A stretch of 64,000 bases of DNA, taken from NCBI GenBank assembly GCA_964481835.1, contig CAYZTT010000001.1:9964-73963 (forward strand). Reading direction: 5' to 3'. Shown here piece by piece: positions 220-39,873 of the stretch. Position numbers and translations under genes: made by a program. The DNA is from Candidatus Woesearchaeota archaeon (GTDB lineage Archaea > Nanobdellota > Nanobdellia > SCGC-AAA011-G17 > PNOQ01). The stretch's first letter is position 1. Every line of letters begins with the position of its first letter. The notes below the pieces were generated by a model. It was given only the letters and a program-made list of their open reading frames with translations, had not been told where the DNA came from and made no database searches.

Positions 220-527
220 CCTTAATTCCTTGAGTTTTATTTTTGTTTAAATAATTTGCCATTGAAGAACCTCCCTTGCCTAGAGGCAGTACTAGATAAT
301 GATAGAAGTAATCTTAGTTATGGTGTTGATCATAATGGGTTTTTTGAGGGAGGGGGCCTATTTAAATGTTCCTTATTCCTTAAAAAACGAAAGATATTTA
401 TAATGGCTTCATCTCCCTTGTTTGTATGGAAGAGAATAATAAAGAAATAAACCTAAAAGAGAAGAATTGGAAGTTAAGCATGAAGGAAGTTATTAAATCT
501 GGTTGCTTAATCAACTCTAACTAATTT

Positions 528-1574
528 TTGGGTTTAAAGATGGAGATTGAACTGGGCGGAGAAGAATTTAAGAAAAAGTTATATGTTAGCCCGTTATATG
601 TTCAACTTGATTTGACCAATAAATGTAATTTGAATTGTGCGTATTGTTATAATCGAAATGTAAAATATTCTTCCGAATTGAGTGATATGCAACTTTTAGA
701 CATTGTTAATCAGATAAAAGAGGAAGTTAAACCTCTATTTGTGACTTTTTCTGGAGGAGAACCATTTGTTAGGAAAGAAATTATGTTTAGATTAATTAAA
801 ATATTGAAAGAATCGGATATTGAGATTTTTGTTAATACCAATGGGACTTTAATTGATGAATCTGTGGCTAAAAAAATTGGTGAATTAGATATAGATAAAA
901 TAAATATAAACTTGGATGGTATTGATAAAGAGAAACATGATAACCTAAGGGGATTACCTGGATGCTTCGATAGAGCATTAAAGGCCATTGAATTATTAAA
1001 AAAGCATGCCCCCACCGCCCTAGTTTCTATTCGTACTGTTATTACTAAAGAAAACTACGGAGAGATAGAGCACATTGCAAAGTTCGTTAAGGAAGTGGGG
1101 TTGAAAGAATATATGTTAATTGATTTCATACCCAAATATGATGATCATCATCTCATGATGAAGAAGGAGGAGTGGTTAGAATTTTATGAGATTTATAAAA
1201 AAATAAAGGAGCTTGGATTAAGAATTATTCCAAATCATGCCATTTTATTTTTGGAACGTAAAAGAGATGTGGGAATTCCATTTTGCATGGCCGGTAGAAT
1301 AAAGCTATCTATCGGGGCAAATGGAGATGTCTTTGCTTGCGATCATTTGAAAGAGAGAAAATTTGTTGCGGGCAATGTATTAACTGAGAAAATTTTAGAT
1401 ATCTGGCAGAATTCAGAAATCATAAATAAATTTAGAGGTTTAGAACCCAGTGAATGCAAGGGTTGTGATTTTGTAAAGCAATGCGAAGGAGGATGCCATG
1501 CAATGGCGTATTATATTCATAAAAATGTTGAAGGAATGGATCCATATTGTAAAATGGGATTAGAAAATGGGTAA
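528..1574 (+). CDS. Radical SAM enzyme with C-terminal SPASM domain
   Basis: It has a CNLNCAYC (CX3CX2C) radical-SAM cluster motif and GGEP. The C-terminus carries the Cys pattern of a SPASM/twitch auxiliary-cluster domain (C...C...CKGC...C...C...C). Confidence 0.8.
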   Translation: MGLKMEIELGGEEFKKKLYVSPLYVQLDLTNKCNLNCAYCYNRNVKYSSELSDMQLLDIVNQIKEEVKPLFVTFSGGEPFVRKEIMFRLIKILKESDIEIFVNTNGTLIDESVAKKIGELDIDKININLDGIDKEKHDNLRGLPGCFDRALKAIELLKKHAPTALVSIRTVITKENYGEIEHIAKFVKEVGLKEYMLIDFIPKYDDHHLMMKKEEWLEFYEIYKKIKELGLRIIPNHAILFLERKRDVGIPFCMAGRIKLSIGANGDVFACDHLKERKFVAGNVLTEKILDIWQNSEIINKFRGLEPSECKGCDFVKQCEGGCHAMAYYIHKNVEGMDPYCKMGLENG

Positions 1575-2556
1575 TGAATCTGGGTTACAAATATTAGAGA
1601 TAGAGATAACTACACGATGTAATTTAGATTGTAAACATTGTTATGTAGACAAATCTACCCCTTCCGACATGAAGGATGATTTATTGAAAAAGGTTATTGA
1701 TGAAGGGAGTATTTTAGCCCCCCATGACTTGATTTTTACTGGGGGTGAACCCCTTTTGTGCAGGGACCTCTTATTAAAATTTGCAAATTATGCTAAGAAG
1801 AAGAATTTTGAAAGAGTAGGCCTATTAACCAATGGCCTTTTGATTAATAGTGAAATTGCTAGGGAGTTAAGGGCATTCGATTTCGTACAATTAAGTCTTG
1901 ATGATGTAACCCATAACCGAGAAGGATATAGGATAGATTACTTGGATAGATTAAAACAGGTTGCCTCTCTTTTGAAAGAGGAAGGAATCCATGTGGTATT
2001 TATGTGCACAGTAAATAAACAAAATATAAAAAACATTGGTGCGATTGTTGATTTTGCCAAGAAACTAGGGGTACAAATAGGTTTTAATAGGACTTGCCCA
2101 GTGGGATCCGCCTGTGGATTGAATAAAAATGTTATTTTGGCGGAAGAAGGGCTGAGAGATGCCTTGGTATCAATCTCAAAATTTGTTGATGGAGCGCGGG
2201 TTCGCTGTTCTGACCCCTTGACTATTCTAGTAAATGAGGCTAAAAAGAAAAATGCCTTAGAGAGTGAGAAATCAATTGTTGGAGGATGCACTGCAGGAAT
2301 TGCAGGGTGTTACGTTGCAGTAAATTGTGATGTATACCCTTGCCCATTACTAAGGAAAGCAGTGGACAATGTTTCTGAAAAATCTTTGGTGGAAGTTTGG
2401 GAAACTAATGATATATTTACAAAATTTAGAGATAGAGATAACTTAAAGGGAAAATGCGGAAAGTGTGAATTGAGAAGTGGGTGTGGAGGGTGTAGGGCCA
2501 CGGCACTTTCAATCAAAAAAGATATCTTAGAATCAGACCCCTTCTGCTGGATTTAG
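1567..2556 (+). CDS. Second radical SAM/SPASM enzyme, overlapping upstream gene by 8 nt
   Basis: It has CNLDCKHC (CX3CX2C), GGEP, and a C-terminal Cys-rich SPASM-like segment (GGCTAGIAGCYVAVNCDVYPC...GKCGKCELRSGCGGC). It is translationally coupled to the 528-1574 gene. Confidence 0.8.
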   Translation: MGNESGLQILEIEITTRCNLDCKHCYVDKSTPSDMKDDLLKKVIDEGSILAPHDLIFTGGEPLLCRDLLLKFANYAKKKNFERVGLLTNGLLINSEIARELRAFDFVQLSLDDVTHNREGYRIDYLDRLKQVASLLKEEGIHVVFMCTVNKQNIKNIGAIVDFAKKLGVQIGFNRTCPVGSACGLNKNVILAEEGLRDALVSISKFVDGARVRCSDPLTILVNEAKKKNALESEKSIVGGCTAGIAGCYVAVNCDVYPCPLLRKAVDNVSEKSLVEVWETNDIFTKFRDRDNLKGKCGKCELRSGCGGCRATALSIKKDILESDPFCWI

Positions 2557-2590
2557 TTAGTTTTTTAAATTGTTTTAGATTTCTAGTTTT
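2557..2590 (+). terminator. T-rich tract downstream of the rSAM pair, possible archaeal oligo-T terminator
   Basis: A run of T-stretches (tagttttttaaattgttttagatttctagtttt) lies immediately after the stop codon. Confidence 0.25.
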
Positions 2591-3554
2591 ATGTCAATCC
2601 ATAAGGGAATCTCTGCCCGTAGTGGTTGGAAATTAGGTATCAGCCTATTTCTGTTGCTTATTGCAGGACAATCTCCGCAGGTAAATCGGCATTGGCAAAC
2701 ATTCATTGATCAGAGATTTGATATTGATAGTGACGGTATGCTGGAGCAAATAGCTTTGCAATGGAAAGTAAGTGAATTTAGGGGGATTGATTATCGGCTT
2801 GTGGTGAAAGATTTTGGTTATGGTGGAAGTCCGGAAAGGAGGGTAGAGTTCGATCTTGAGGGCAAACCCGATGTATTTGAAATCTCTGATGGCAATGATG
2901 ATGGAAACTATGAGTTGTTCTTGGAAACAGTAGATGGGAAAACTCGAGATAGATATAGGTTTCGGGGAAATGTCCGAGATGGGTTTGAGCTGCCAGTATT
3001 GGCAGGCACTAGGTATTCTAGATAATTTTATAAGCAGTTTATATTTCCCTTTTTTTATGTTTCTATACAGAATAAATCATCCGGATAATAAAGTTAGGGA
3101 AGAACCTCTGCCCTTTAGAGGATATGTTATCGATTATGGATTTGATGAATCGTATGGGGGCGATGTTGAGAGGGCTACAGAATTATTGCAGAGAGTTATG
3201 CAAAGATCTGGACCCACATGGTTTGCTACCAATATTGATTTTATGTTGGGCGTTTTCTGGGGAGACCCAGAGGGGCACCTGGGCGGGCCTGCACAGGTAA
3301 TGGACTTGTATGGATATATTTTGAATTAGGAATCTGCCCCTATTTCAGATGGCCCTGGCAACCCAGACGCAAAACCATATGTTTTGAAGAATGGAGTATG
3401 GCAATGTGCTAGGCCCACATTTTGTGAGGATAGTTTTATTATGCTGGGTAGAGAAGGGGAGCATCGGAGGCGGTGTGATAATCTTGAAACGGCGATGAGA
3501 ACGTGGCCAAATTTGGAGGATATTGAGCCTTCAGAGACGGTTGAGCTAAGTTAA
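2591..3554 (+). pseudogene. Disrupted gene for a signal-peptide-bearing secreted protein (frameshift plus in-frame TAG)
   Basis: Two overlapping ORFs in different frames (2591-3025 and 2934-3329). The frame of the second stays open after an in-frame TAG at 3327-3329, through to the TAA at 3552-3554. The N-terminus is signal-peptide-like (LGISLFLLLIAG). G+C is visibly higher than the flanks. Confidence 0.35.
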
Positions 3555-3561
3555 TTTTGAA

Positions 3562-3819
3562 ATGGAATTAAGCGAAAAATTGTATAGTTGGCTTATTGAA
3601 GAAGAATCTATTTCTGGAAGATTTGACCTATATCTGCTCTTTAGAGGAAAAGGGCTTGACCCTCGGGGGGCAATTTTGGGGGCTAGAGTATGTGAAGAAA
3701 CCTATATGCCTGAATTGAGAGAAAGAGGATATAACTTAGAAAGTATTCCTGACAAATTTGAACGTTTAGAAAAAAGTTTGGGTGCGTTGAATAGTTTATT
3801 TGATTTTGGAGAGAATTAA
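3562..3819 (+). CDS. Hypothetical small protein
   Basis: An 85-aa ORF with non-low-complexity composition and no recognisable motif. Confidence 0.25.
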   Translation: MELSEKLYSWLIEEESISGRFDLYLLFRGKGLDPRGAILGARVCEETYMPELRERGYNLESIPDKFERLEKSLGALNSLFDFGEN

Positions 3820-4442
3820 AGTGTGCATCTTATGTCATCTGAATCAAAGCTTTCATCGCTCCGGGTAAGTTGATCTGTACAGTCCCTCTTTATGTTGCAA
3901 CCATATCCTATCTCTTCCCAGGTGTTTTCATGGACATATGCATCTGCTGCCTCATTGTATACTCTTTCTGAGCCTGTTTTTTCCTCACATATTCCCTCGT
4001 AATTGTTTTCTTCCTGTGTTGTATCTTCTTCAATATCAGTTGTGTTGGTTTCTGTTGTCGTGTTAATTGTATCATTAATTGTATCTTCTTCAGTATTTGC
4101 AGTAGAATGCCCCTCAAGTTCGAATGGGGACAGGCCAGCCAGGAAAACTACTGAGATTACGATTAAGACAAATAATAGTACAGAAGGGATTACGATTAAT
4201 TTTGTGGATACCTTTTCTGGCATATGTTTTGGATCTTTGTGCCTGGTAAGTGTTAACTCTATAATTAATCCAATTATAAATCCAATTATTAACCAGATGG
4301 CAGTATTTAGGTAAATATTAGAAACAAATAAAGGAGCTACCTCAATTGCTGCCTTTTGATTTATTTGGTTGACTAGGTAAGTAATTACTCCAAAAACTAC
4401 GGCGAAATTCACTGCATTGAAAATGGGTACCTTGAGTCTCAT
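3816..4442 (-). CDS. Membrane protein with Thr-rich stalk and Cys-containing extracytoplasmic C-terminal region
   Basis: It has three predicted TM helices, a T/N/E-rich low-complexity segment (TINTTTETNTTDIEEDTT), and C-terminal cysteines. Confidence 0.4.
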   Translation of the reverse strand: MRLKVPIFNAVNFAVVFGVITYLVNQINQKAAIEVAPLFVSNIYLNTAIWLIIGFIIGLIIELTLTRHKDPKHMPEKVSTKLIVIPSVLLFVLIVISVVFLAGLSPFELEGHSTANTEEDTINDTINTTTETNTTDIEEDTTQEENNYEGICEEKTGSERVYNEAADAYVHENTWEEIGYGCNIKRDCTDQLTRSDESFDSDDIRCTL

Positions 4443-4467
4443 AGTATTCTTTATTTGTTTTTTGTTT

Positions 4468-6615
4468 TTAAAGTTTTTTGTTTCTCAATAGATTGGCATT
4501 TGTGACTACAGTGATACTTGAGAGGGCCATTGCTAGCTCTGCGATCACTGGACTAAGAATCCCGGTCATTGCAAGAGGGATAGCTATGACATTATAGAAG
4601 AATGCCCAAAATAGATTTTGTTTAATTTTTGAGAAGGTTGATTTAGATAAATTGATCGCTTGTACTACGCCTATGAGAGATCCTTTCGCCAAAACTATAT
4701 CTCCTGATTCTATTGCAATATCTGTCCCTGTACCCATAGCAATTCCAACATTTGCTTGTTTTAGTGCAGGAGCATCATTAATTCCATCCCCTACAAAAGC
4801 TACAAATCCTTTCTTTTGAAGTTCCTTGATTTTTTTAGATTTATCTTCTGGCAAAACTTTTGCGATTGCTTCTTTGATCCCTACTTGCTTTGCAATGGCG
4901 TTAGCCGTAATTTCATTGTCCCCCGTTAGCATAACTGTCCTGTATCCTTGCCGGTTTAGTGCCCTGATAGATTTTATCGAGTCATTTTTTAGGGCATCTG
5001 CAACCCCAATAACCCCAATAACCTTCTTATTCTCTGAGACTATCATTGTTGTTTGGCCCTGTTCTTCAAATTCCTTTATTTTTTCGGAGAGTCCTCTTAG
5101 ATTAACTTTATTTTCCTGCATTAGGGATTCATTGCCTATTAAAATCTTTTTAGTGCCTATTGTACCTTGAATTCCTTTCCCCCGAATGTTTTTGAAATTT
5201 TTTACTGGCCTATATCTTTTTAGGTTAGCTTTCTTTACGATGGCTTTTGCTATTGGATGTTCAGATAATTTTTCAAGGCTCCCTGCGATTTCTAATAATT
5301 GTTTTTTGTTTTTTGCGTGGATGTTAATTACTTCTGGTTGGCCTTTTGTTATTGTTCCAGTTTTATCAAATACAATTGTTTTTATTTCTTTCATGGTTTG
5401 GATTGCTTCTCCTTTTCGGATTAGAATTCCTTTTTTGGCCCCCATCCCGGAACCCACCATTAGAGATATTGGTACTGCTAGCCCTAATGAACATGGGCAA
5501 GCAATAACTAATACTGCTATGGCCACCCCAATCGCTCTGCTCATTTCTGCAGGCAGGATAAATACCCAAAATAAAAATGTTAACACAGAGAGTACTAAAA
5601 TAACGGGAACGAATATATTTGTTATTTTGTCAGCTATTTTTTGAATTGGAACTTGCGTTCCTTGTGCTTCTTCCACCAGCTTAATTATGTGGGACAAGAA
5701 AGTATCTTTTCCTATTTTTGTGGCCTTTACATATAAAATTCCATCCTGGTTTATTGTTGCGCCAATTACGTGACCCCTTAATTTCTTTTCTACTGGTAGA
5801 CTTTCTCCAGTTACCATAGATTCATCAACACTACTGGCCCCCCTTGTTATTATTCCGTCTGTGGGAATTTTTTCTCCAGGCTTTACTATAAAAATATCGC
5901 CAAGCTTAACCTCCGAAATTGGGAGTTCTATTTCTTCTTTTCCTCTTAAAACTCTTGCTTTCTTTGCCCCCAGTTCTAATAGCTTTTTTATTTCTGATGT
6001 TGCTTTTCCTCTTGCTCGATCTTCAATATACTTTCCAGTTATGAAGATTGTCATAATCATCCCAGAAACTCCGGAGAAATCTTGGATAGGCATGAAAAAA
6101 CTTAATATCCCTGTTGAAAATGCAATCACAGTACCTAATGCTATTAGGGAATCCATAGTAAAATATAATTTGTAAAATCCTCGTAGGCCTGCTTTTATTG
6201 TTGAAAATCCGAATATGAAGATAATTGGGAATGATAAAATTAACATTATTGGGGTCATTATATCCATCGAAACAATGGCTGTGCCAATTAATTTCTCAGA
6301 ATACATAATAAACATTATTGGGATTGTAAGTAACCAAACTCCGATTAGTTTGGTTAGCCAAAATTTAGTTTTTTTAGAAGGAGAAGCTGAAGAAGATGAT
6401 TCTTCAAATTCAACTTCTTTTGGATTGAAACCAGCATCTTTTATTGCAGCTTTTAGTTTATCTTTGCTTACCTTCTTATCTACTTCAAGAAAGGCTTTTC
6501 CCGCAATAGGATTTACGTTTATGTTATTTGTTCCTTTTATTTTTGAAAGACTCCTCTTTACGTTACTAGCACAGCTGGCACAATGCATTCCTTCTATGTT
6601 TATCTTGGCCTTCAT
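4468..6615 (-). CDS. copA: Copper/heavy-metal translocating P1B-type ATPase
   Basis: The N-terminal HMA domain has GMHCASC. It has the CPC transmembrane metal site (ACPCSLGLA), DKTGTIT phosphorylation motif and GDGINDAP hinge. Length is 715 aa. Confidence 0.9.
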
Positions 6616-6652
6616 TTTTTAACTCCCAATTTTATAAAGAAAAAAAGAATAT

Positions 6653-7108
6653 TTAAAACCTATATTTTCCTGCTTCAATGTCAGAGTGTTTTATAACTAA
6701 TGTTCCTCCTTGAATTTCGCTGGGTAGGTAGCCTGGCCAACACCCTCCTCCGGCCCTATTTTCAGTTCCTAAGCCACTTATTGGATATTTATTTCCACAG
6801 TTATTGCAGATCATTTGAGCTCCTTCTTGCCTATAGCCTTTCTTGCTTCCGTAGCAAACATCGCAGGCGTCAAACGCAGTCTTTATGGATCCATCAGATG
6901 ATTTTACGGCAAAGAATTTTACCTTTTTTCCATCTGCATCGTACTCATACCATTTTGCTTCTTCAGTTATCTCTGTTAAAGGAATCTCAGTTATACCTGT
7001 TGTTAGAGGTATAGTTTGTGTGGCATTGCCTGTTGTAGTTCCCTTGCTAATAAAGAAAATTGCTGCAAGGAGTACTAGCATTGTTATTATTATTGTTTTC
7101 TTCTTCAT
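6653..7108 (-). CDS. Signal-anchored Cys-rich protein with zinc-ribbon-like CxxC-x15-CxxC module (start trimmed to internal ATG at 7106-7108)
   Basis: It begins MKKKTIIITMLVLLAAIFF (signal/anchor) and contains CDVCYGSKKGYRQEGAQMICNNCG and GGGCWPG. It lies immediately downstream of a second Cys-rich membrane protein and next to copA. Confidence 0.4.
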   Translation of the reverse strand: MKKKTIIITMLVLLAAIFFISKGTTTGNATQTIPLTTGITEIPLTEITEEAKWYEYDADGKKVKFFAVKSSDGSIKTAFDACDVCYGSKKGYRQEGAQMICNNCGNKYPISGLGTENRAGGGCWPGYLPSEIQGGTLVIKHSDIEAGKYRF

Positions 7109-7109
7109 T

Positions 7110-7859
7110 TTATTTATTGTAGTTGCATGTTGGGCTTCCGCAACTTCCTCCACATGTTCCTGCGCCCCCACACCCTCCAGAACAAGATCCCCCTGGAGAG
7201 TTTGATGCCGTATTTGGTTGTACTTGCTGAACTCCCGTATTTTCCCCTAGTACCGTGGCAGGATATTCTTCAAATACATCTAGAGAAAGGATTTCTTCTT
7301 TGGATGTTACCGAAGAATCATAGTAAACCTCGAAATCATTTGGGAAAGTATATTCTGATCCCTTAACCCCTTCAATAGTACTTAGTTCATTAGTTATTAA
7401 TGGTGCATGGCCGGGACAAGGAATGTCTACAGATATCTTTAGTATATCAGAACCCAGTGCATCCGTTTCGGTTACTCCGCCTGTTGCAGATGCCAAGAAA
7501 GGGAATACTAAGAATATTAACAAAATATTAATTCCCACGGTTGACCCATACATTGTTGTTAGGTATTTCTTCTTTTTCTTTATCCCTGCTTTTGAGAGGA
7601 GTTTATTTTTTCTCAGGTATATGTATGCGGAAATAGTTGCAAATACAACCGATATCAATATTAAATAATAAAAAATATTTCTATTTAGTAATAATGGTTT
7701 GAAGAACTGCATTAGTACTGTTGTTCCTAAGACTGCTGCAATAATGAAGAGTATACACCCTATGTGAGGAACTAGGCCATAAATTATGCCCATAAACGGA
7801 TTATCGCCTTTGTATTCTTTCTTTGGCTTGCAACAATCTGGTAGATTATCTTTTTCCAT
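7110..7859 (-). CDS. Putative metal-binding membrane protein (N-terminal CC motif, 3 TM, HMA-like domain, C-terminal Cys/Gly-rich tail)
   Basis: DCCKPKK at the N-terminus. The segment VDIPCPGHAPLITNELSTIEGVKGSEY resembles a ferredoxin-like metal-binding fold. The tail is GGSCSGGCGGAGTCGGSCGSPTC. Confidence 0.35.
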   Translation of the reverse strand: MEKDNLPDCCKPKKEYKGDNPFMGIIYGLVPHIGCILFIIAAVLGTTVLMQFFKPLLLNRNIFYYLILISVVFATISAYIYLRKNKLLSKAGIKKKKKYLTTMYGSTVGINILLIFLVFPFLASATGGVTETDALGSDILKISVDIPCPGHAPLITNELSTIEGVKGSEYTFPNDFEVYYDSSVTSKEEILSLDVFEEYPATVLGENTGVQQVQPNTASNSPGGSCSGGCGGAGTCGGSCGSPTCNYNK

Positions 7860-7908
7860 GAGAACTTTATTATTATCCTTTTATATAACCGCTTTGGTGA
7901 AACTAGTT

Positions 7909-8376
7909 TCACTCCTTTAGAACTATGATATTATTCATTCCTCTTCGTTTTCTTTCAATAATTTGTTTGGATTCTAATTTGTCTAGAAGCCTTGTTGTCT
8001 TAACTTTCCCTATTTCGAGCTTTTCCATTAGATCTCTTTGGAACATTGCTTTGTTCTCTTTTCTGAGTAATTTTACTACGTTTAGCTCTTCCTCGTTTAA
8101 CCCAGTTGTGTTTACTTTCTTTGCTTTTTCTTTTTTTATGATAGTTTTTGTTTCGGGTTTTGAGAACATTATGAATAACCCAATGAATAAAATAAATCCT
8201 GTAACTACCAGGCTAATATTTGTTTGTGTGGCGATAGTATCATACATCGTACATTCTGGCCCATGGCTACAACTTTGTGATACTATACTTTTCATTGAAA
8301 TATTGAATGTGAAGATAATAATGGCTAGAATTATTGCTATTGCCACGATTAATATCCCTACATTTTTGTTTTTCAT
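7909..8376 (-). CDS. Membrane-anchored winged-helix transcriptional regulator
   Basis: The start is trimmed to MKNKNVGILIVAIAIIL (TM helix). The C-terminus reads LNEEELNVVKLLRKENKAMFQRDLMEKLEIGKVKTTRLLDKLESKQIIERKRRG, which is typical of MarR/TrmB-like wHTH. Confidence 0.5.
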   Translation of the reverse strand: MKNKNVGILIVAIAIILAIIIFTFNISMKSIVSQSCSHGPECTMYDTIATQTNISLVVTGFILFIGLFIMFSKPETKTIIKKEKAKKVNTTGLNEEELNVVKLLRKENKAMFQRDLMEKLEIGKVKTTRLLDKLESKQIIERKRRGMNNIIVLKE

Positions 8377-8411
8377 AGAAAAAGAAGAAAATGGGTGTTT
8401 ATAATGTTTAT

Positions 8412-8645
8412 CTATTGCTGTTCTTTTATTGCTGGTTGCGCTTTTGCCACTTGTTGTTCTTTTTTGAACATTAATGCAAATGGCCTTATTGCAGCCAGTA
8501 TTCCTATTGCTAGGTACCAGTACCACTCTAATGCTAGAAGTCCTGACCACAACTTTGCAACCATTAATATTATTGCTGCGGTGCTTAACTTAATTAGAGA
8601 TATGTCAAACCATTTAAGATTCTTTAACATAGTTTTTATGCACAT
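8412..8645 (-). CDS. Small membrane protein
   Basis: 77 aa with two predicted TM helices, directly upstream of the membrane-anchored regulator. Confidence 0.3.
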   Translation of the reverse strand: MCIKTMLKNLKWFDISLIKLSTAAIILMVAKLWSGLLALEWYWYLAIGILAAIRPFALMFKKEQQVAKAQPAIKEQQ

Positions 8646-8679
8646 CGAATATCACCTCTATTATTCCCTTTATTTGAGG

Positions 8680-9243
8680 TTATTTAAGTTTTACTCTTCT
8701 TCTATAAAAGTCTGCTATAAACATATTCTCCGTAAAAGCTAGTGCAGGTAGGCCGATTAGGACAATACACATAACTACAAAGATTATTGCTAACAGGATG
8801 CTTTTTAAGATGGCAACTATATAATCCCCTAGATCTGTGAACACTGGTTTTAATGCTTTAAATTCGAAATAGGAACTTACTGTCCCTTTTACGAAGAAAT
8901 TTATGGTCAGTATTGGTACTATGAATAATTCCAATAGAACAGTAACAAAGTCTTCTGCACCTTTACCAAAGAGACCAAACCCTTCTGTGATTAAGAAATA
9001 TACTAGTATGAAGGGTATTGCTTTCAGAAACATAAAAAATCCTAGTTTAAAATCAGATTTGAATTGGAAAGTTGGTAATTTTTTGAATTTTCCGTTGGTA
9101 AACTCTTTAATAATTCTAATCCCATAACCACCTAACGGGAACCAACCAATGATCGGTAAAAGTATCCATAGAATATTCCACATTCCTTTTGCTCTGTTAA
9201 AGGGATAGCTGAAAGCTGTCTTGAATCTTAATGTTTTCATCAT
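8680..9243 (-). CDS. Polytopic membrane protein (DUF4013-like)
   Basis: 187 aa with 4-5 hydrophobic helices and a GWFPLGGYG motif. Confidence 0.4.
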   Translation of the reverse strand: MMKTLRFKTAFSYPFNRAKGMWNILWILLPIIGWFPLGGYGIRIIKEFTNGKFKKLPTFQFKSDFKLGFFMFLKAIPFILVYFLITEGFGLFGKGAEDFVTVLLELFIVPILTINFFVKGTVSSYFEFKALKPVFTDLGDYIVAILKSILLAIIFVVMCIVLIGLPALAFTENMFIADFYRRRVKLK

Positions 9244-9303
9244 ATTGAAAGGTTTATTGTGTATTTAAGGTTTTTTAATTTCTTGTCAATCACACCCAAA
9301 ATA

Positions 9304-13157: not shown

Positions 13158-13253
13158 TTTTGTAGGATTTAGAATTTTAAGGGATATATAAATGTTATTA
13201 TGCGATTTTTGGAGAATAAAAAGCCTTTTAAGAATAATCCTTGTCCCCCATTT

Positions 13254-14369
13254 ATGGCAAACATGAAGCAAAATGTTCAAAATATTTTGGATTTGGCAGA
13301 CATCAAGCTAAATGGTGATCGGCCTTGGGACATAAAAGTTAGAAATCCCGGATTCTATTCAGGGGTTCTGGCAGGAGGGTCCCTTGCCCTTGGAGAATCT
13401 TACATGGATGGATGGTGGGAATGTGATAATCTTGATCAATTCTTCCATAGAATACTAAAGGCCAATTTAGATAAAAAAGTTGTAAACTTAAGACAACTTA
13501 TTTGGGCAGTTTTAAAGGCTAAATTAATTAATCGCCAGAGTAGATCTAGGGCGCATGTTGTTGGAGAAAAGCATTACGATGCAGGAAATGACCTTTACAG
13601 TTTGATGTTAGATAAGAGACTTACATATAGTTGCGGCTATTGGAAAAGTGCGAAAAACCTTAATAGTGCCCAAGAAGCCAAATTAGATTTGATTTGTAAA
13701 AAACTTGGGCTAAAAAAAGGAATGAGTGTTCTAGACATTGGCTGTGGCTGGGGGAGCTTTGCTAAATTTGCCGCGGAAAAATACAAGGTTAAGGTCGTGG
13801 GCATTACAGTTTCTAAAGAGCAAGTAAAACTTGGAAGAGAAATATGTAAGGGTTTGCCTGTTGAAATAAAGTTGCAAGATTATCGGAGTTTAAGAGGCAA
13901 ATATGATAGGATAGTTTCTGTGGGCATGATTGAACATGTCGGTTGCAAGAATTATAGAAAATACATGAAGGTTGCAAACCGATGTTTAAAGAAAGATGGT
14001 TTATTCTTATTGCATACCATTGGAGGAAACGTGTCTGTAAATGGTGTGGACCCCTGGATAGATAAATATATTTTCCCGAATGGGATGTTGCCTTCTGTAA
14101 AACAACTTTCAAAGGCAAGTGAGGGTCTGTTTGTCATGGAAGATTGGCATAATTTTGGGACGGATTACGATAAAACCTTGATGGCATGGCATAAGAACTT
14201 TATAGAAGATTGGGATAAAATAAAGGATAAATATAATGCAAGATTTTTTAGAATGTGGGAATATTATCTTTTATGCTGTGCAGGCTCATTTAGGGCTAGA
14301 AAAAATCAATTGTGGCAGATTGTATTCTCCAAAGATGGTTTAAAAGAGGGTTATCGGAGCATACGGTAG
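13254..14369 (+). CDS. cfa: Cyclopropane-fatty-acyl-phospholipid synthase family SAM-dependent methyltransferase (bacterial type)
   Basis: Long collinear similarity to E. coli Cfa as I recall it: DIKVRNPGFY...GESYMDGWWECDNLD, VLDIGCGWG SAM motif, RIVSVGMIEHVG, LLHTIG, VDPWIDKYIFPNGMLPS, FVMEDWHNFGTDYDKTLMAW, YYLLCCAGSFRAR, LWQIVFS. Confidence 0.85.
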   Translation: MANMKQNVQNILDLADIKLNGDRPWDIKVRNPGFYSGVLAGGSLALGESYMDGWWECDNLDQFFHRILKANLDKKVVNLRQLIWAVLKAKLINRQSRSRAHVVGEKHYDAGNDLYSLMLDKRLTYSCGYWKSAKNLNSAQEAKLDLICKKLGLKKGMSVLDIGCGWGSFAKFAAEKYKVKVVGITVSKEQVKLGREICKGLPVEIKLQDYRSLRGKYDRIVSVGMIEHVGCKNYRKYMKVANRCLKKDGLFLLHTIGGNVSVNGVDPWIDKYIFPNGMLPSVKQLSKASEGLFVMEDWHNFGTDYDKTLMAWHKNFIEDWDKIKDKYNARFFRMWEYYLLCCAGSFRARKNQLWQIVFSKDGLKEGYRSIR

Positions 14370-35250: not shown

Positions 35251-35262
35251 TTAAAATAAATA

Positions 35263-35337
35263 TGGGCCCGATGGGATTTGAACCCACGACCCCCTGGTTA
35301 AGAGCCAGGTGCTACCACCAAACTGAGCTACGGACCC
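35263..35337 (-). tRNA. tRNA-Lys (anticodon CTT)
   Basis: The reverse complement is GGGTCCGTAGCTCAGTTTGGTGGTAGCACCTGGCTCTTAACCAGGGGGTCGTGGGTTCAAATCCCATCGGGCCCA. It folds into a cloverleaf with a 7-bp acceptor stem, a 5-bp anticodon stem with loop CTCTTAA, and a GTTCAAATC T-loop. There is no intron and no encoded CCA. Confidence 0.85.
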
Positions 35338-35377
35338 AATAAGAAAAAGAGCTAAAACTCAATTTAAAAAACTTTTG

Positions 35378-39027: not shown

Positions 39028-39873
39028 TTATTCTTCAATATCGTCAAGGACATTTCTCACTTTTTTTAGTTGCTCTTTTGATACATGCGTGTAAATTTGA
39101 GTAGTAGACAGATCCGAATGGCCAAGTAACTCCTGAATTATTCGTATATCTACTCCTGCATCTAGATTGTGGGTGGCAAAGGAGTGCCTTAGTTTGTGTG
39201 CAGTCACCTTTTTGCTTATTTTTGCCAATTTTGCGGTATTTGATATTATTTTTTGAACATTTCTTGCCGAAAGGTGATCTTTTTTCCCAGGAAAGAGATA
39301 TTGTTCTCTTTCGTCTATTGTTTGTATATATTTCTTAATTTCATGTGTTAGTTTCTCTGATAAGAAAAATGCCCTATCTTTTCCGCCTTTTCCAGATCTG
39401 ACCCACCCCATGCCATTTTCTAATTCAATATCCATGATCTTTAGGTTTACACATTCACTCACCCTCAACCCAGTGGAGTATAGTAGTCTCATAATCAATA
39501 GGGATTTTTTTGAAGGAGCTCTTTCAAACAATCTCCTTACTTCTTCTTTTGTTAGGAATATCGGTATTGACTTGGGGATTTTTGGAGTTTTTAGATTTAC
39601 TATACTCATCCCCATAACTTCATGGAAAAAGAACTTTAATGCCGCCTTCTTTACTGCGATGGATCTGGGAGCATGATCTGAGTCGGAAACTAAATATGCA
39701 AAATATTCTTTGATATCTTCTTCAAGAATTTGGGGAGGATGCCTATCTTCAGGAAGATTCTTATTTACATGATTTAGAAAAAGTTTGACATTTTGGACAT
39801 ATGATTCTCTTGTTCTTTGAGAGAACCCCCTTAATTTCATTTCAGTAACTAGCCTTTTTAGACAAATCCCCAT
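39028..39873 (-). CDS. Tyrosine site-specific recombinase (XerA/XerC/D-like integrase)
   Basis: N-terminal SAM-like core-binding domain. The catalytic residues are R (GLRVSE), K, HxxR (HKLRHSFAT), R and Y (LGHSDLSTTQIYTHV). 281 aa. Confidence 0.85.
   Translation of the reverse strand: MGICLKRLVTEMKLRGFSQRTRESYVQNVKLFLNHVNKNLPEDRHPPQILEEDIKEYFAYLVSDSDHAPRSIAVKKAALKFFFHEVMGMSIVNLKTPKIPKSIPIFLTKEEVRRLFERAPSKKSLLIMRLLYSTGLRVSECVNLKIMDIELENGMGWVRSGKGGKDRAFFLSEKLTHEIKKYIQTIDEREQYLFPGKKDHLSARNVQKIISNTAKLAKISKKVTAHKLRHSFATHNLDAGVDIRIIQELLGHSDLSTTQIYTHVSKEQLKKVRNVLDDIEE

What the first reader, a model, noticed from the sequence alone, without database searches (positions are those of the whole stretch)
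404..2556. Tandem, translationally coupled radical SAM/SPASM enzymes with no obvious partner
Two paralogous ~330-350 aa radical SAM proteins sit head-to-tail with an 8-nt overlap, each with a CX3CX2C motif and a seven-Cys SPASM auxiliary domain. Such pairs usually act on a peptide or cofactor, as in RiPP maturases, anaerobic-sulfatase-type maturases, or the AhbC/AhbD (NirJ-like) alternative-haem enzymes. None of the expected partners is visible: there is no ahbA/B and no sulfatase. The only candidate substrates are an upstream micro-ORF (404-451, MASSPLFVWKRIIKK) embedded in a TATA-like promoter region, and the decayed secreted gene immediately downstream. The function is therefore unresolved and potentially novel for this lineage.
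Basis: partly seen in the sequence, partly recalled or inferred. Interest (0 to 1): 0.55.

Follow-up and report, generated by a model that had tools for sequence, protein, structure and literature searches.

The report
Overlooked peptide gene feeding twin radical-SAM enzymes
Together they form an uncharacterised three-gene peptide-modification cassette shared by small-genome archaea and several groups of uncultured bacteria.

Summary
Genes A (540-1574, 344 aa) and B (1567-2556, 329 aa) overlap by 8 nt. Both have CX3CX2C, a Pfam SPASM domain and seven invariant C-terminal cysteines.

The claim of "no partner" is wrong.
- Its 18-residue block, W-[KR]-x10-C-x-x-N-x-[DN], is found upstream of A in 40 of 40 related loci that include upstream DNA.
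- It has no hit in 748 kb of control loci.
- Against the closest relative, 12 of its 18 codons differ and all 12 changes are synonymous.
- A profile search found 46 such peptide clusters among 1.84 billion proteins. None is named.

Neither enzyme reaches any NCBIfam family cut-off (AhbC/D, NirJ, MftC, PqqE, anSME, PapB, ScmE/F). Both AlphaFold models best match peptide-modifying SPASM enzymes (SuiB, anSME, CteB, SkfB, PqqE) and lack a leader-recognition domain.

Best reading: a new RiPP-type cassette of precursor plus two co-translated maturases, probably cross-linking the invariant Cys to the downstream Asn or Asp. The chemistry and the product's role are inferred, not shown.

The parts
394..404 (+). 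TATA-box-like promoter element (ATATTTATAAT) with a purine-rich stretch just upstream. It lies about 25 nt before the peptide ATG, which implies a leaderless or near-leaderless transcript.
   Evidence: Read from the sequence. An A/T-rich TATA-like element sits at the same aligned position in L006 and L002. Promoter function is inferred from general knowledge of archaeal promoters and was not tested.
426..524 (+). Precursor-peptide gene, 32 aa: MEENNKEINLKEKNWKLSMKEVIKSGCLINSN. It has a variable Lys/Glu/Asn-rich N-terminal part. The conserved block is codons 15-32 (nt 468-521), with W15, C27 and N30 invariant.
   Evidence: ORF. (orthologous ORFs upstream of A in all related loci). (ungapped 18-residue block; W, C and N invariant). 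(40/40 loci versus 0 hits in 748 kb of controls). (12 synonymous, 0 non-synonymous codon changes versus L006). (22 and 47 database clusters, unnamed).
540..1574 (+). Radical SAM/SPASM enzyme A (344 aa; alternative TTG start at 528). CX3CX2C at C29/C33/C36 and seven SPASM cysteines. No N-terminal leader-recognition (RRE) domain.
   Evidence: The orthologue group is tight: 251-722 bits, then a drop to 166 bits. AlphaFold pLDDT 92.7. Best PDB folds are SuiB, anSME, SkfB, CteB, TigE and PqqE.
1567..2556 (+). Radical SAM/SPASM enzyme B (329 aa), overlapping A by 8 nt. CX3CX2C at C18/C22/C25 and seven SPASM cysteines. No RRE domain.
   Evidence: AlphaFold pLDDT 91.6. Best PDB folds are SuiB, CteB, PqqE, SkfB and anSME. 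B follows A in all complete related loci except L010.
2561..2566 (+). T6 run five nt after B's stop codon: a candidate archaeal oligo-T terminator closing the three-gene unit.
   Evidence: Read from the sequence only. Inferred, not tested. The bacterial-type terminator scan found nothing here.

Best explanation
Window 394-2566 is one transcription unit encoding a ribosomal precursor peptide (426-524) and two co-translated radical SAM/SPASM maturases, A and B, that modify it.

Proposed mechanism:
- The variable N-terminal part of the peptide acts as a spacer or leader.
- The conserved amphipathic stretch W-K-L-S-M-K-E-V-I-K-S-G docks the peptide directly on the enzymes, because neither enzyme has an RRE domain.
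- The invariant Cys27 and Asn30, plus the Asp/Asn at position 32, form the reactive core.
- Each enzyme cleaves SAM at its CX3CX2C cluster to make a 5'-deoxyadenosyl radical and abstracts a hydrogen atom from the peptide. The two auxiliary SPASM clusters handle the electron.
- The most likely product is a ranthipeptide- or sactipeptide-type thioether from the Cys27 sulfur to a carbon of Asn30 or residue 32.
- The second enzyme either installs a second modification (the invariant Trp15-Lys/Arg16 pair is the obvious second site) or works as the obligate partner in an A-B complex.

Shown here: gene organisation, conservation, purifying selection on the peptide, intact cluster-binding motifs in both enzymes, and peptide-maturase folds.

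Inferred: that the peptide is the substrate, the chemistry, complex formation, and the biological role of the product.
For: 1. Linkage. The peptide ORF, A and B occur in that order in all related loci with enough sequence. These come from archaeal, Patescibacteria, Firmicutes and Alphaproteobacteria MAGs.
2. The motif is upstream of A in 40/40 loci. It has 0 hits in 73 control loci (748 kb, six frames) around more distant rSAM/SPASM genes.
3. Coding selection. Against L006, 12 of 18 codons in the block differ and all are synonymous, while enzyme A is only 76% identical.
4. Features typical of RiPP precursors:
   - variable N-terminus and conserved C-terminal block;
   - two tandem precursor genes in L090;
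   - two helix-plus-core repeats within one ORF in P0245 and P0268.
5. Both enzymes keep all ten cluster cysteines across their orthologues.
6. Both AlphaFold models (pLDDT 92.7 and 91.6) best match peptide-modifying SPASM enzymes: SuiB, anSME, CteB, SkfB, TigE, PqqE.
7. The A/B overlap or close spacing is conserved: 8-26 nt overlaps in L001, L003, L006, L114, L122 and L123.
8. Precedents:
   - TrnC and TrnD are two rSAM enzymes that work only as a tight complex (PMC12093266).
[quoted passage not shown] This matches the C-x-x-N-x-[DN] layout.
Against: - There is no biochemical evidence at all.
- The peptide has only one Cys, so two thioether-forming enzymes are not obviously needed.
- Neither enzyme reaches the cut-off of any curated sactipeptide or ranthipeptide maturase model. 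PapB scores 105 and 62 bits against a cut-off of 340.
- No RRE domain, protease or exporter is adjacent in the window.
- The core is unusually conserved across domains of life. This fits a cofactor or signal better than an antibiotic.
- Many relatives carry extra genes that the window lacks: a PP-loop ATPase, a methyltransferase, a GNAT (sometimes fused to B) and a third rSAM. The full pathway may therefore be more complex than the window's trio, or incomplete here.
- Gene callers did not call the ORF in the window's own source contig.
Confidence: 0.7

Rival explanations
1. The cassette makes a peptide-derived redox cofactor or small metabolite, in the manner of mycofactocin (MftA/MftC) or PQQ (PqqA/PqqE). 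The conserved core would be excised and used inside the cell rather than released as a bioactive peptide.
For: - The core is almost invariant across archaea and bacteria, as are the PqqA and MftA cores (own knowledge).
- A's best NCBIfam hit is the mycofactocin maturase (157 bits).
- PqqE is among the best fold matches for both enzymes.
- The cassette sits among housekeeping genes (IleRS, MCM, TBP, RFC) in reduced archaeal genomes.
- Hydrolases accompany it in some bacteria: M20, Amidohydro_2, AstE/AspA-like.
Against: - MftC scores 157 bits against a cut-off of 265, and PqqE 105 and 93 bits against 381.
- No MftB- or PqqD-like chaperone is present.
- The peptide has no C-terminal Gly-Val-Tyr or Glu-x3-Tyr motif.
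- Some precursors carry two repeats of helix plus core, which is unusual for cofactor precursors.
- No dependent oxidoreductase is linked to the cassette.
Confidence: 0.15
2. The small ORF is not the substrate. It would be a small regulatory or scaffolding protein, and A and B would modify something else: a protein elsewhere in the genome (as anSME does), a lipid, or tRNA or a nucleoside. The tRNA idea comes from the PP-loop ATPase, GNAT and methyltransferase found with the pair in other genomes.
For: - PP-loop ATPases, GNATs, methyltransferases and rSAM enzymes are the usual toolkit of tRNA modification (own knowledge).
- The PP-loop protein's weak hits are to TilS and argininosuccinate synthase N-terminal domains.
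- B-GNAT fusions recall the rSAM+GNAT layout of Elp3 (own knowledge).
- A also gives a PDB sequence hit to the archaeal lipid synthase GDGT-MAS, 7tol.
Against: - The invariant Cys, Asn and Trp in a short peptide, the multi-repeat and multi-copy forms, and the strict adjacency to A all fit a substrate.
- The best full-length fold matches are peptide-modifying enzymes, not MiaB, Tyw1 or Elp3.
- The window has none of the tRNA-type accessory genes next to the pair.
Confidence: 0.1
3. A and B are the alternative haem pathway enzymes AhbC and AhbD (NirJ1/NirJ2-like). They would act on a tetrapyrrole, with the rest of the pathway encoded elsewhere.
For: B's best NCBIfam hit is AhbD (156 bits) and A's second best is NirJ2 (153 bits). 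AhbC/AhbD and NirJ1/NirJ2 are also pairs of rSAM/SPASM paralogues (own knowledge). One public source labels two B relatives "AdoMet-dependent heme synthase".
Against: - Scores are less than a third of the curated cut-offs: AhbD 500, AhbC 650, NirJ1 650, NirJ2 500.
- A and B each form their own orthologue groups, well separated from NirJ2-annotated proteins at about 31% identity.
- A conserved peptide gene is always attached.
- Nothing assignable to haem synthesis was found among the roughly 36 window ORFs scanned.
- The hosts include Patescibacteria and small-genome archaea, which generally lack tetrapyrrole synthesis (own knowledge).
Confidence: 0.03

Closest known systems
Ranthipeptide maturases of the PapB type (and NxxcB, QhpD)
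   Same: A SPASM radical SAM enzyme acts on a ribosomal peptide in which a Cys is followed a few residues later by an Asp, Glu or Asn acceptor. [quoted passage not shown] Here the invariant layout is C-x-x-N-x-[DN].
   Different: PapB-model scores are 105 (A) and 62 (B) bits against a cut-off of 340. The precursor usually has one Cys, not six. There are two enzymes rather than one. No RRE domain is present. Thioether formation has not been shown.
Thuricin CD sactisynthases TrnC/TrnD (also RumMC1/RumMC2 of ruminococcin C)
   Same: Two adjacent paralogous rSAM/SPASM enzymes sit in one peptide cluster. TrnC and TrnD work only as a tight complex (PMC12093266). The conserved translational coupling of A and B would suit such a complex.
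   Different: Thuricin CD has two precursors with several Cys each, and its enzymes carry N-terminal RRE domains (own knowledge). Here there is one precursor type with one Cys and no RRE. No sequence-level membership was found.
Anaerobic sulfatase-maturating enzyme (anSME)
   Same: It has the same size and overall architecture: about 340-370 aa, rSAM core plus SPASM, no RRE. It binds its Cys-containing peptide substrate directly. The fold match covers nearly the whole of anSME (TM-score normalised to the target 0.71-0.73 for A).
   Different: The TIGR03942 scores are 91 and 62 bits against a cut-off of 349. The peptide has no C/S-x-P/A-x-R motif. No sulfatase was found in the window.
Streptide-type Lys-Trp cross-linking enzymes (SuiB/StrB) and WgkB/WprB
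   Same: SuiB is the best structural match for both A and B. WgkB is among A's top NCBIfam hits (150 bits). The peptide has an invariant Trp followed by Lys or Arg. WprB cross-links Trp to Arg (PMC11851443).
   Different: WgkB scores 150 and 110 bits against a cut-off of 650. SuiB has an N-terminal RRE, and A and B do not. The Trp may only be part of the docking helix.
Mycofactocin (MftA/B/C) and PQQ (PqqA/D/E) peptide-derived cofactor systems
   Same: A short precursor with a highly conserved core sits next to a SPASM rSAM enzyme. MftC is A's best NCBIfam hit.
   Different: Scores are below cut-off (157 against 265; PqqE 105 against 381). There is no MftB or PqqD partner. The core motif is different. 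There are two rSAM enzymes.
AhbC/AhbD and NirJ1/NirJ2 (sirohaem-dependent haem synthesis)
   Same: They are tandem paralogous rSAM/SPASM enzymes of similar length, and they are the top or near-top NCBIfam hits.
   Different: Scores are 100-156 bits against cut-offs of 500-650. A peptide gene is always attached. There is no tetrapyrrole context.

Membership tests
Radical SAM / SPASM subfamily (generic) | CX3CX2C cluster motif and Pfam Radical_SAM (PF04055) above the gathering score | tested here: met
   A scores 108.5 bits and B 73.8 bits against a cut-off of 29.5. The three Cys are invariant in 25 A and 37 B orthologues.
Radical SAM / SPASM subfamily (generic) | C-terminal SPASM domain (PF13186) with seven Cys for two auxiliary 4Fe-4S clusters | tested here: met
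   A scores 43.1 bits and B 31.1 bits against a cut-off of 21.5. Seven C-terminal Cys are invariant in each alignment. Cluster binding itself was not tested.
AhbD haem synthase (TIGR04545) / AhbC (TIGR04546) | Whole-protein score at or above the curated equivalog cut-off (500 / 650 bits) | tested here: not met
   AhbD: A 142.9, B 156. AhbC: A 99.7, B 98.6.
AhbD/AhbC pathway | Genomic association with other tetrapyrrole genes such as ahbA/ahbB | tested here: not met
   Nothing assignable to tetrapyrrole synthesis was found among about 36 window ORFs scanned with Pfam, nor in neighbourhoods of relatives. The rest of the genome was not available.
NirJ1/NirJ2 (TIGR04054/TIGR04055) | Score at or above the cut-off (650 / 500 bits) | tested here: not met
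   NirJ2: A 153.2, B 147.6. NirJ1: A 119.9, B 104.6.
Mycofactocin maturase MftC (TIGR03962) | Score at or above 265 bits; MftA (C-terminal Gly-Val-Tyr) and MftB partners | tested here: not met
   A scores 157.4 and B 82.3. The peptide ends ...GCLINSN. No PqqD/MftB-like gene is adjacent.
PqqE (TIGR02109) | Score at or above 381 bits; PqqA and PqqD partners | tested here: not met
   A scores 105.4 and B 93.3. No pqq genes were found in the window.
Anaerobic sulfatase maturase (TIGR03942) | Score at or above 349 bits; sulfatase substrate with a C/S-x-P/A-x-R motif | tested here: not met
   A scores 91.3 and B 62.2. No sulfatase was found among the scanned ORFs. The peptide lacks the motif.
PapB-type ranthipeptide maturase (NF047865) | Score at or above 340 bits | tested here: not met
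   A scores 105.5 and B 61.8.
Ranthipeptide / sactipeptide systems (functional class) | Precursor with a donor Cys and a conserved acceptor residue downstream | tested here: met
   Cys and Asn(+3) are invariant in the 25 locus-derived peptides. They are retained in essentially all other family peptides, except L122, whose core is C-Y-R-D. The +5 position is mostly Asp or Asn.
Ranthipeptide / sactipeptide systems (functional class) | A thioether cross-link is actually formed | not testable with these tools
   Requires co-expression or in-vitro assay with mass spectrometry.
Ranthipeptide / sactipeptide systems (functional class) | N-terminal RRE (PqqD-like) leader-recognition domain on the maturase or a separate RRE protein | tested here: not met
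   There is no PF05402 hit. The rSAM core starts at about residue 20 in A and residue 9 in B in the AlphaFold models. More distant homologues (P0029 and others) and L122's A-like protein do carry such an extension.
RiPP precursor peptide (generic) | Short ORF, same strand, adjacent to the maturase, conserved with it; variable leader and conserved core; coding selection | tested here: met
   40/40 loci against 0 hits in 748 kb of controls. The alignment shows a variable N-terminus and a conserved block. 12 synonymous and 0 non-synonymous codon changes against L006.
SynChlorMet cassette ScmE/ScmF (TIGR04250/TIGR04251) | Score at or above 400 bits for the paired rSAM/SPASM enzymes | tested here: not met
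   ScmE: A 120.7, B 62.9. ScmF: A 103, B 69.7.
Prokaryotic viperin (defence) | Full-length match to the pVip / NF038283 model (cut-off 180 bits) | tested here: not met
   NF038283: A 79.8, B 56.9. The PADLOC pVip hits (81 and 67 bits) cover only the rSAM core.

The most novel reading that the evidence does not exclude
The cassette makes a previously unknown peptide-derived molecule with a near-invariant core (W...GC-L-I-N-x-D). The producers would be ultra-small, host-dependent microbes from both domains: small-genome, DPANN-like archaea and Patescibacteria, plus gut Alphaproteobacteria and Firmicutes MAGs.

It would be built by an RRE-less heteromeric pair of SPASM enzymes using chemistry not yet described. 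Examples are a Cys-to-Asn link combined with a Trp-Lys/Arg link, or, where B is fused to a GNAT, a radical acyl transfer. The product would serve as a shared cofactor or as a signal between symbiont and host rather than as an antibiotic.
Probability: 0.2. Interest if true: 0.75.

Novelty: new variant of a known kind. Interest (0 to 1): 0.55.

Why it matters
Radical SAM-modified peptides are a known kind of system, but this family has no curated model, no name in any source searched and no paper found.

Three things make it worth an experiment:
- Its precursor core is conserved from archaea to several bacterial phyla. That is unusual for RiPPs and hints at a conserved cellular or inter-species role.
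- It uses two co-translated SPASM enzymes without a leader-recognition domain on a peptide with a single Cys. This raises a clear mechanistic question about what the second enzyme does.
- It is kept in very small genomes next to replication and translation genes, in organisms thought to have minimal biosynthetic capacity.

The minimal three-gene form in this window is small enough (2.2 kb) to synthesise and test directly.

Tried and rejected
1. Rejected: it is in the wrong frame, its ATG lies in the TATA element, and that ATG is AAG in L006.
2. The downstream broken gene (2591-3329) as substrate. It has no Pfam hit and is not conserved after B in L006 or L001.
3. AhbC/D, NirJ, MftC, PqqE, anSME, PapB, ScmE/F, GeoRSP, WgkB and viperin membership. 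All fall far below their cut-offs.
4. Pfam and NCBIfam models for the peptide. None at E up to 10.
5. Rfam and tRNA scans. Only one tRNA-Lys, far away.
6. Accessory genes found in relatives (PP-loop ATPase, methyltransferase, third rSAM, GNAT, M20). tblastn found none in the 64 kb window, and none lies in the 10 kb upstream.
7. Organism name. Cluster look-up returned no names. The window is archaeal by gene content, but its phylum was not determined.
8. Literature. Five full-text searches found no description of this peptide family or cassette. An archaeal RiPP survey mentions only predicted rSAM RiPP clusters in general terms (PMC12144867).
9. The bacterial promoter and terminator scan was uninformative for an archaeon.
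10. One motif hit in L018 (position 4778) and one 458-aa repeat protein (P0276) are judged to be chance matches.
Full report

Yes. The ORF listing and the raw sequence show two same-strand ORFs.
- A runs 540-1574 from its ATG (an in-frame TTG lies at 528) and is 344 aa.
- B runs 1567-2556 and is 329 aa.
- B's ATG and A's TAA share the octamer ATGGGTAA.

Pfam places Radical_SAM and SPASM domains in both, above the gathering scores. The three CX3CX2C cysteines and seven C-terminal cysteines are invariant in orthologue alignments: 25 sequences for A and 37 for B. A and B are 24% identical, so they are old paralogues and not a recent duplication.

**2.

Neighbourhoods of the closest homologues of A were fetched. 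Gene callers had marked 35-49-aa ORFs directly upstream of A in two of these lineages. Translating the same position in every locus showed one conserved peptide.

In the window it is 426-524, MEENNKEINLKEKNWKLSMKEVIKSGCLINSN. It ends 15 nt before A's ATG.

More loci came from GTDB genomes and JGI metagenomes, with further look-ups. All gave the same picture. The 25 distinct peptides align without gaps over an 18-residue block:

W-[KR]-[LIM]-x-[MIVAL]-x-x-[VALF]-[ILF]-x-x-[GA]-C-[LATM]-[LIVM]-N-x-[DN]

Trp, Cys and Asn are invariant. The N-terminal part varies in length and sequence.

**3. Is it more than chance?**

A loose regular expression for the block gave these results:
- It hits directly upstream of A in 40 of 40 family loci that contain upstream DNA. 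Six others begin inside A.
- It hits nowhere in 73 control loci (748 kb, six frames) around more distant rSAM/SPASM genes.
- It gives one evident chance hit, in L018.

Between the window and its nearest sequenced relative (L006, where A is 76% identical), 12 of the 18 codons differ and all 12 changes are synonymous. That is direct evidence of selection on this reading frame.

Two database searches with peptide profiles extended the family.
- A word-indexed search of 5.8 billion proteins found 22 clusters with E between 8e-23 and 6e-6.
- A full HMMER scan of 1.84 billion representatives found 47 hits at E up to 1e-3. Of these, 46 are 26-72-aa peptides with the motif.
- No source gives a functional name. 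Where a name exists it is "hypothetical protein", apart from one evidently unrelated automatic label on P0251.
- Pfam and NCBIfam have no model for the peptide.

**4. The enzymes**

No NCBIfam equivalog cut-off is reached.

| Model | A (bits) | B (bits) | Cut-off |
|---|---|---|---|
| MftC | 157 | 82 | 265 |
| NirJ2 | 153 | 148 | 500 |
| AhbD | 143 | 156 | 500 |
| AhbC | 100 | 99 | 650 |
| PqqE | 105 | 93 | 381 |
| anSME | 91 | 62 | 349 |
| PapB | 105 | 62 | 340 |

A's orthologues form a tight group at 251-722 bits, followed by a drop to 166 bits. B's family is broader and declines smoothly. In every locus with a complete cassette, A is followed by B, usually with overlapping stop and start codons. 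The one exception is L010, where a methyltransferase follows A.

The AlphaFold models are confident: pLDDT 92.7 and 91.6. Their best PDB matches are all peptide-modifying SPASM enzymes: SuiB, anSME, CteB, SkfB, TigE and PqqE. The rSAM barrel begins within the first 10-25 residues, so neither protein has the N-terminal RRE domain that most RiPP maturases use to hold the leader. More distant homologues do carry a PqqD-like domain, as does the A-like protein of L122.

**5. Context**

By gene content the window is archaeal. It encodes RFC small and large subunits, family B and D DNA polymerases, FEN1, Cdc6/Orc1, LonB, CDC48 and Hef. MCM, TBP and aIF genes lie just upstream on the source contig. 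The phylum was not determined.

Upstream of the cassette, on the other strand, is isoleucyl-tRNA synthetase.

A TATA-like element (394-404) aligns with similar A/T-rich elements in L006 and L002, about 25 nt before the peptide ATG. This fits a leaderless transcript starting at the peptide gene. That is an inference from general archaeal promoter geometry. A T6 run follows B (2561-2566).

Among about 36 window ORFs scanned, there is no sulfatase and nothing assignable to haem, PQQ or mycofactocin synthesis.

**6. Accessory genes elsewhere**

In other genomes the trio is often accompanied by further genes. The counts below come from 30 loci, some of them redundant.
- A PP-loop ATPase-like protein occurs in 15 of 30 loci, including the nearest relatives L006 and L002 and the Patescibacteria locus L114.
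- A class I methyltransferase occurs in 9 of 30.
- A third rSAM enzyme occurs in some archaeal loci.
- In bacterial loci, a GNAT acetyltransferase lies directly after B and an M20 peptidase follows it.
- In several proteins the GNAT is fused to B.

None of these is in the window or in the 10 kb upstream of it. The window therefore carries the minimal form: peptide, A and B.

**7. How it most likely works**

The simplest reading is a RiPP-type pathway in which the 32-aa peptide is the substrate of A and B.
- The amphipathic W-K-L-S-M-K-E-V-I-K-S-G segment has hydrophobic residues at i, i+4 and i+7/8. It is the likely docking element in place of an RRE interaction.
- The invariant Cys, with Asn at +3 and Asp/Asn at +5, is the likely reactive core.
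[quoted passage not shown] By analogy, and by analogy with other sacti- and ranthipeptide enzymes, the favoured chemistry is a thioether from Cys27 to Asn30 or residue 32.
- Because there is only one Cys, the second enzyme needs a role. Either it modifies a second site, and the invariant Trp followed by Lys/Arg resembles the sites used by StrB/SuiB, WgkB and WprB (PMC11851443). Or A and B act as an obligate complex, as TrnC and TrnD do (PMC12093266). The conserved translational coupling fits the second option.
- Multi-core precursors and tandem precursor genes support a substrate role.

All of this chemistry is inference.

**8. Rivals**

- A cofactor-type pathway like mycofactocin or PQQ is a real alternative for the product's fate, because the core is so conserved. 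It is still a peptide-maturation system, and none of its membership criteria is met.
- A non-substrate role for the small ORF, with A and B acting on tRNA, lipid or another protein, is suggested only by the accessory gene types seen in other genomes. The peptide's features argue against it.
- AhbC/AhbD is effectively excluded.

**9. Novelty and verdict**

The kind of system, rSAM/SPASM-modified ribosomal peptides, is well known. This family of precursor plus paired RRE-less maturases is not in Pfam, NCBIfam or PADLOC. It is unnamed in the sequence sources searched, and five literature searches did not find it. I rate it a new variant of a known kind, of moderate interest.

It is wrong on the key point that no partner is visible.

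Noticed in passing
L006 6864-7778 (-), L002 1859-2929 (-), L114 3614-4582 (-), L116 3150-4130 (+), L090 2352-3311 (+): An unnamed PP-loop ATPase-like family of about 305-325 aa sits next to the cassette in 15 of 30 loci. It has an N-terminal CxxC...CxxC, SGGLDS, LPCGKxCNS and CGGYDTDC. It only just reaches the Pfam ATP_bind_3 threshold. It is missing from the window and from the 10 kb upstream.
   Followed up: partly
L116 5364-6830; proteins P0168, P0218, P0222, P0223, P0240; L012 2565-3050; L114 6980-7519: A GNAT acetyltransferase lies directly downstream of B in bacterial loci and is fused to B in several proteins. An rSAM+GNAT fusion recalls the Elp3 layout (from memory, not tested).
   Followed up: partly
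P0245, P0268 (66 aa); L090 5260-5391 and 5526-5621: Some precursors contain two helix-plus-core repeats in one ORF. One locus has two tandem precursor genes.
   Followed up: partly
L122 3578-3697 and 3716-5026 (archaeal assembly GCA_002010065.2): This is a divergent member. The peptide keeps W-K...A-A-C, but the core is C-Y-R-D. The A-like enzyme has an N-terminal PqqD-like extension. The cluster adds two more rSAM genes, a methyltransferase and an AstE/AspA-like hydrolase.
   Followed up: no
window 2591-3560: GC is slightly higher here (0.40-0.43 against 0.29-0.36 nearby). Two overlapping ORFs (2591-3025 and 2934-3329) have no Pfam hit. The region is not present after B in L006 or L001.
   Followed up: partly
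window 2600-9300: A window-specific block lies between B and the RFC small subunit. It holds a heavy-metal P-type ATPase (4468-6615), an FtrD-like protein (6653-7171) and a MarR/DUF7343 regulator (7909-8550). The syntenic locus L001 has a subtilisin-like S8 peptidase at this position instead.
   Followed up: partly
window 35262-35338 (-) and 39028-39873 (-): A tRNA-Lys(CTT) gene lies 3.7 kb from a tyrosine integrase gene. This could mark an integrated element.
   Followed up: no
window 13200-14369 (+): A strong match to cyclopropane-fatty-acyl/mycolic acid cyclopropane synthase (CMAS, 306 bits) on an archaeal contig. Its substrate would not be an ordinary archaeal lipid.
   Followed up: no
L113 (Clostridium sporogenes assembly GCA_031629435.1): A B-like homologue (P0200, 33% identical) sits in a different cluster. 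That cluster has a TldD/PmbA pair, an M24 peptidase, a CN-hydrolase/amidohydrolase fusion and another rSAM/SPASM gene. No motif peptide was found there.
   Followed up: partly
L117-L120 (source contigs of the window): Gene callers did not call the 32-aa peptide ORF on the window's own source contigs. Automated annotation and cluster-mining tools would therefore miss the precursor.
   Followed up: yes
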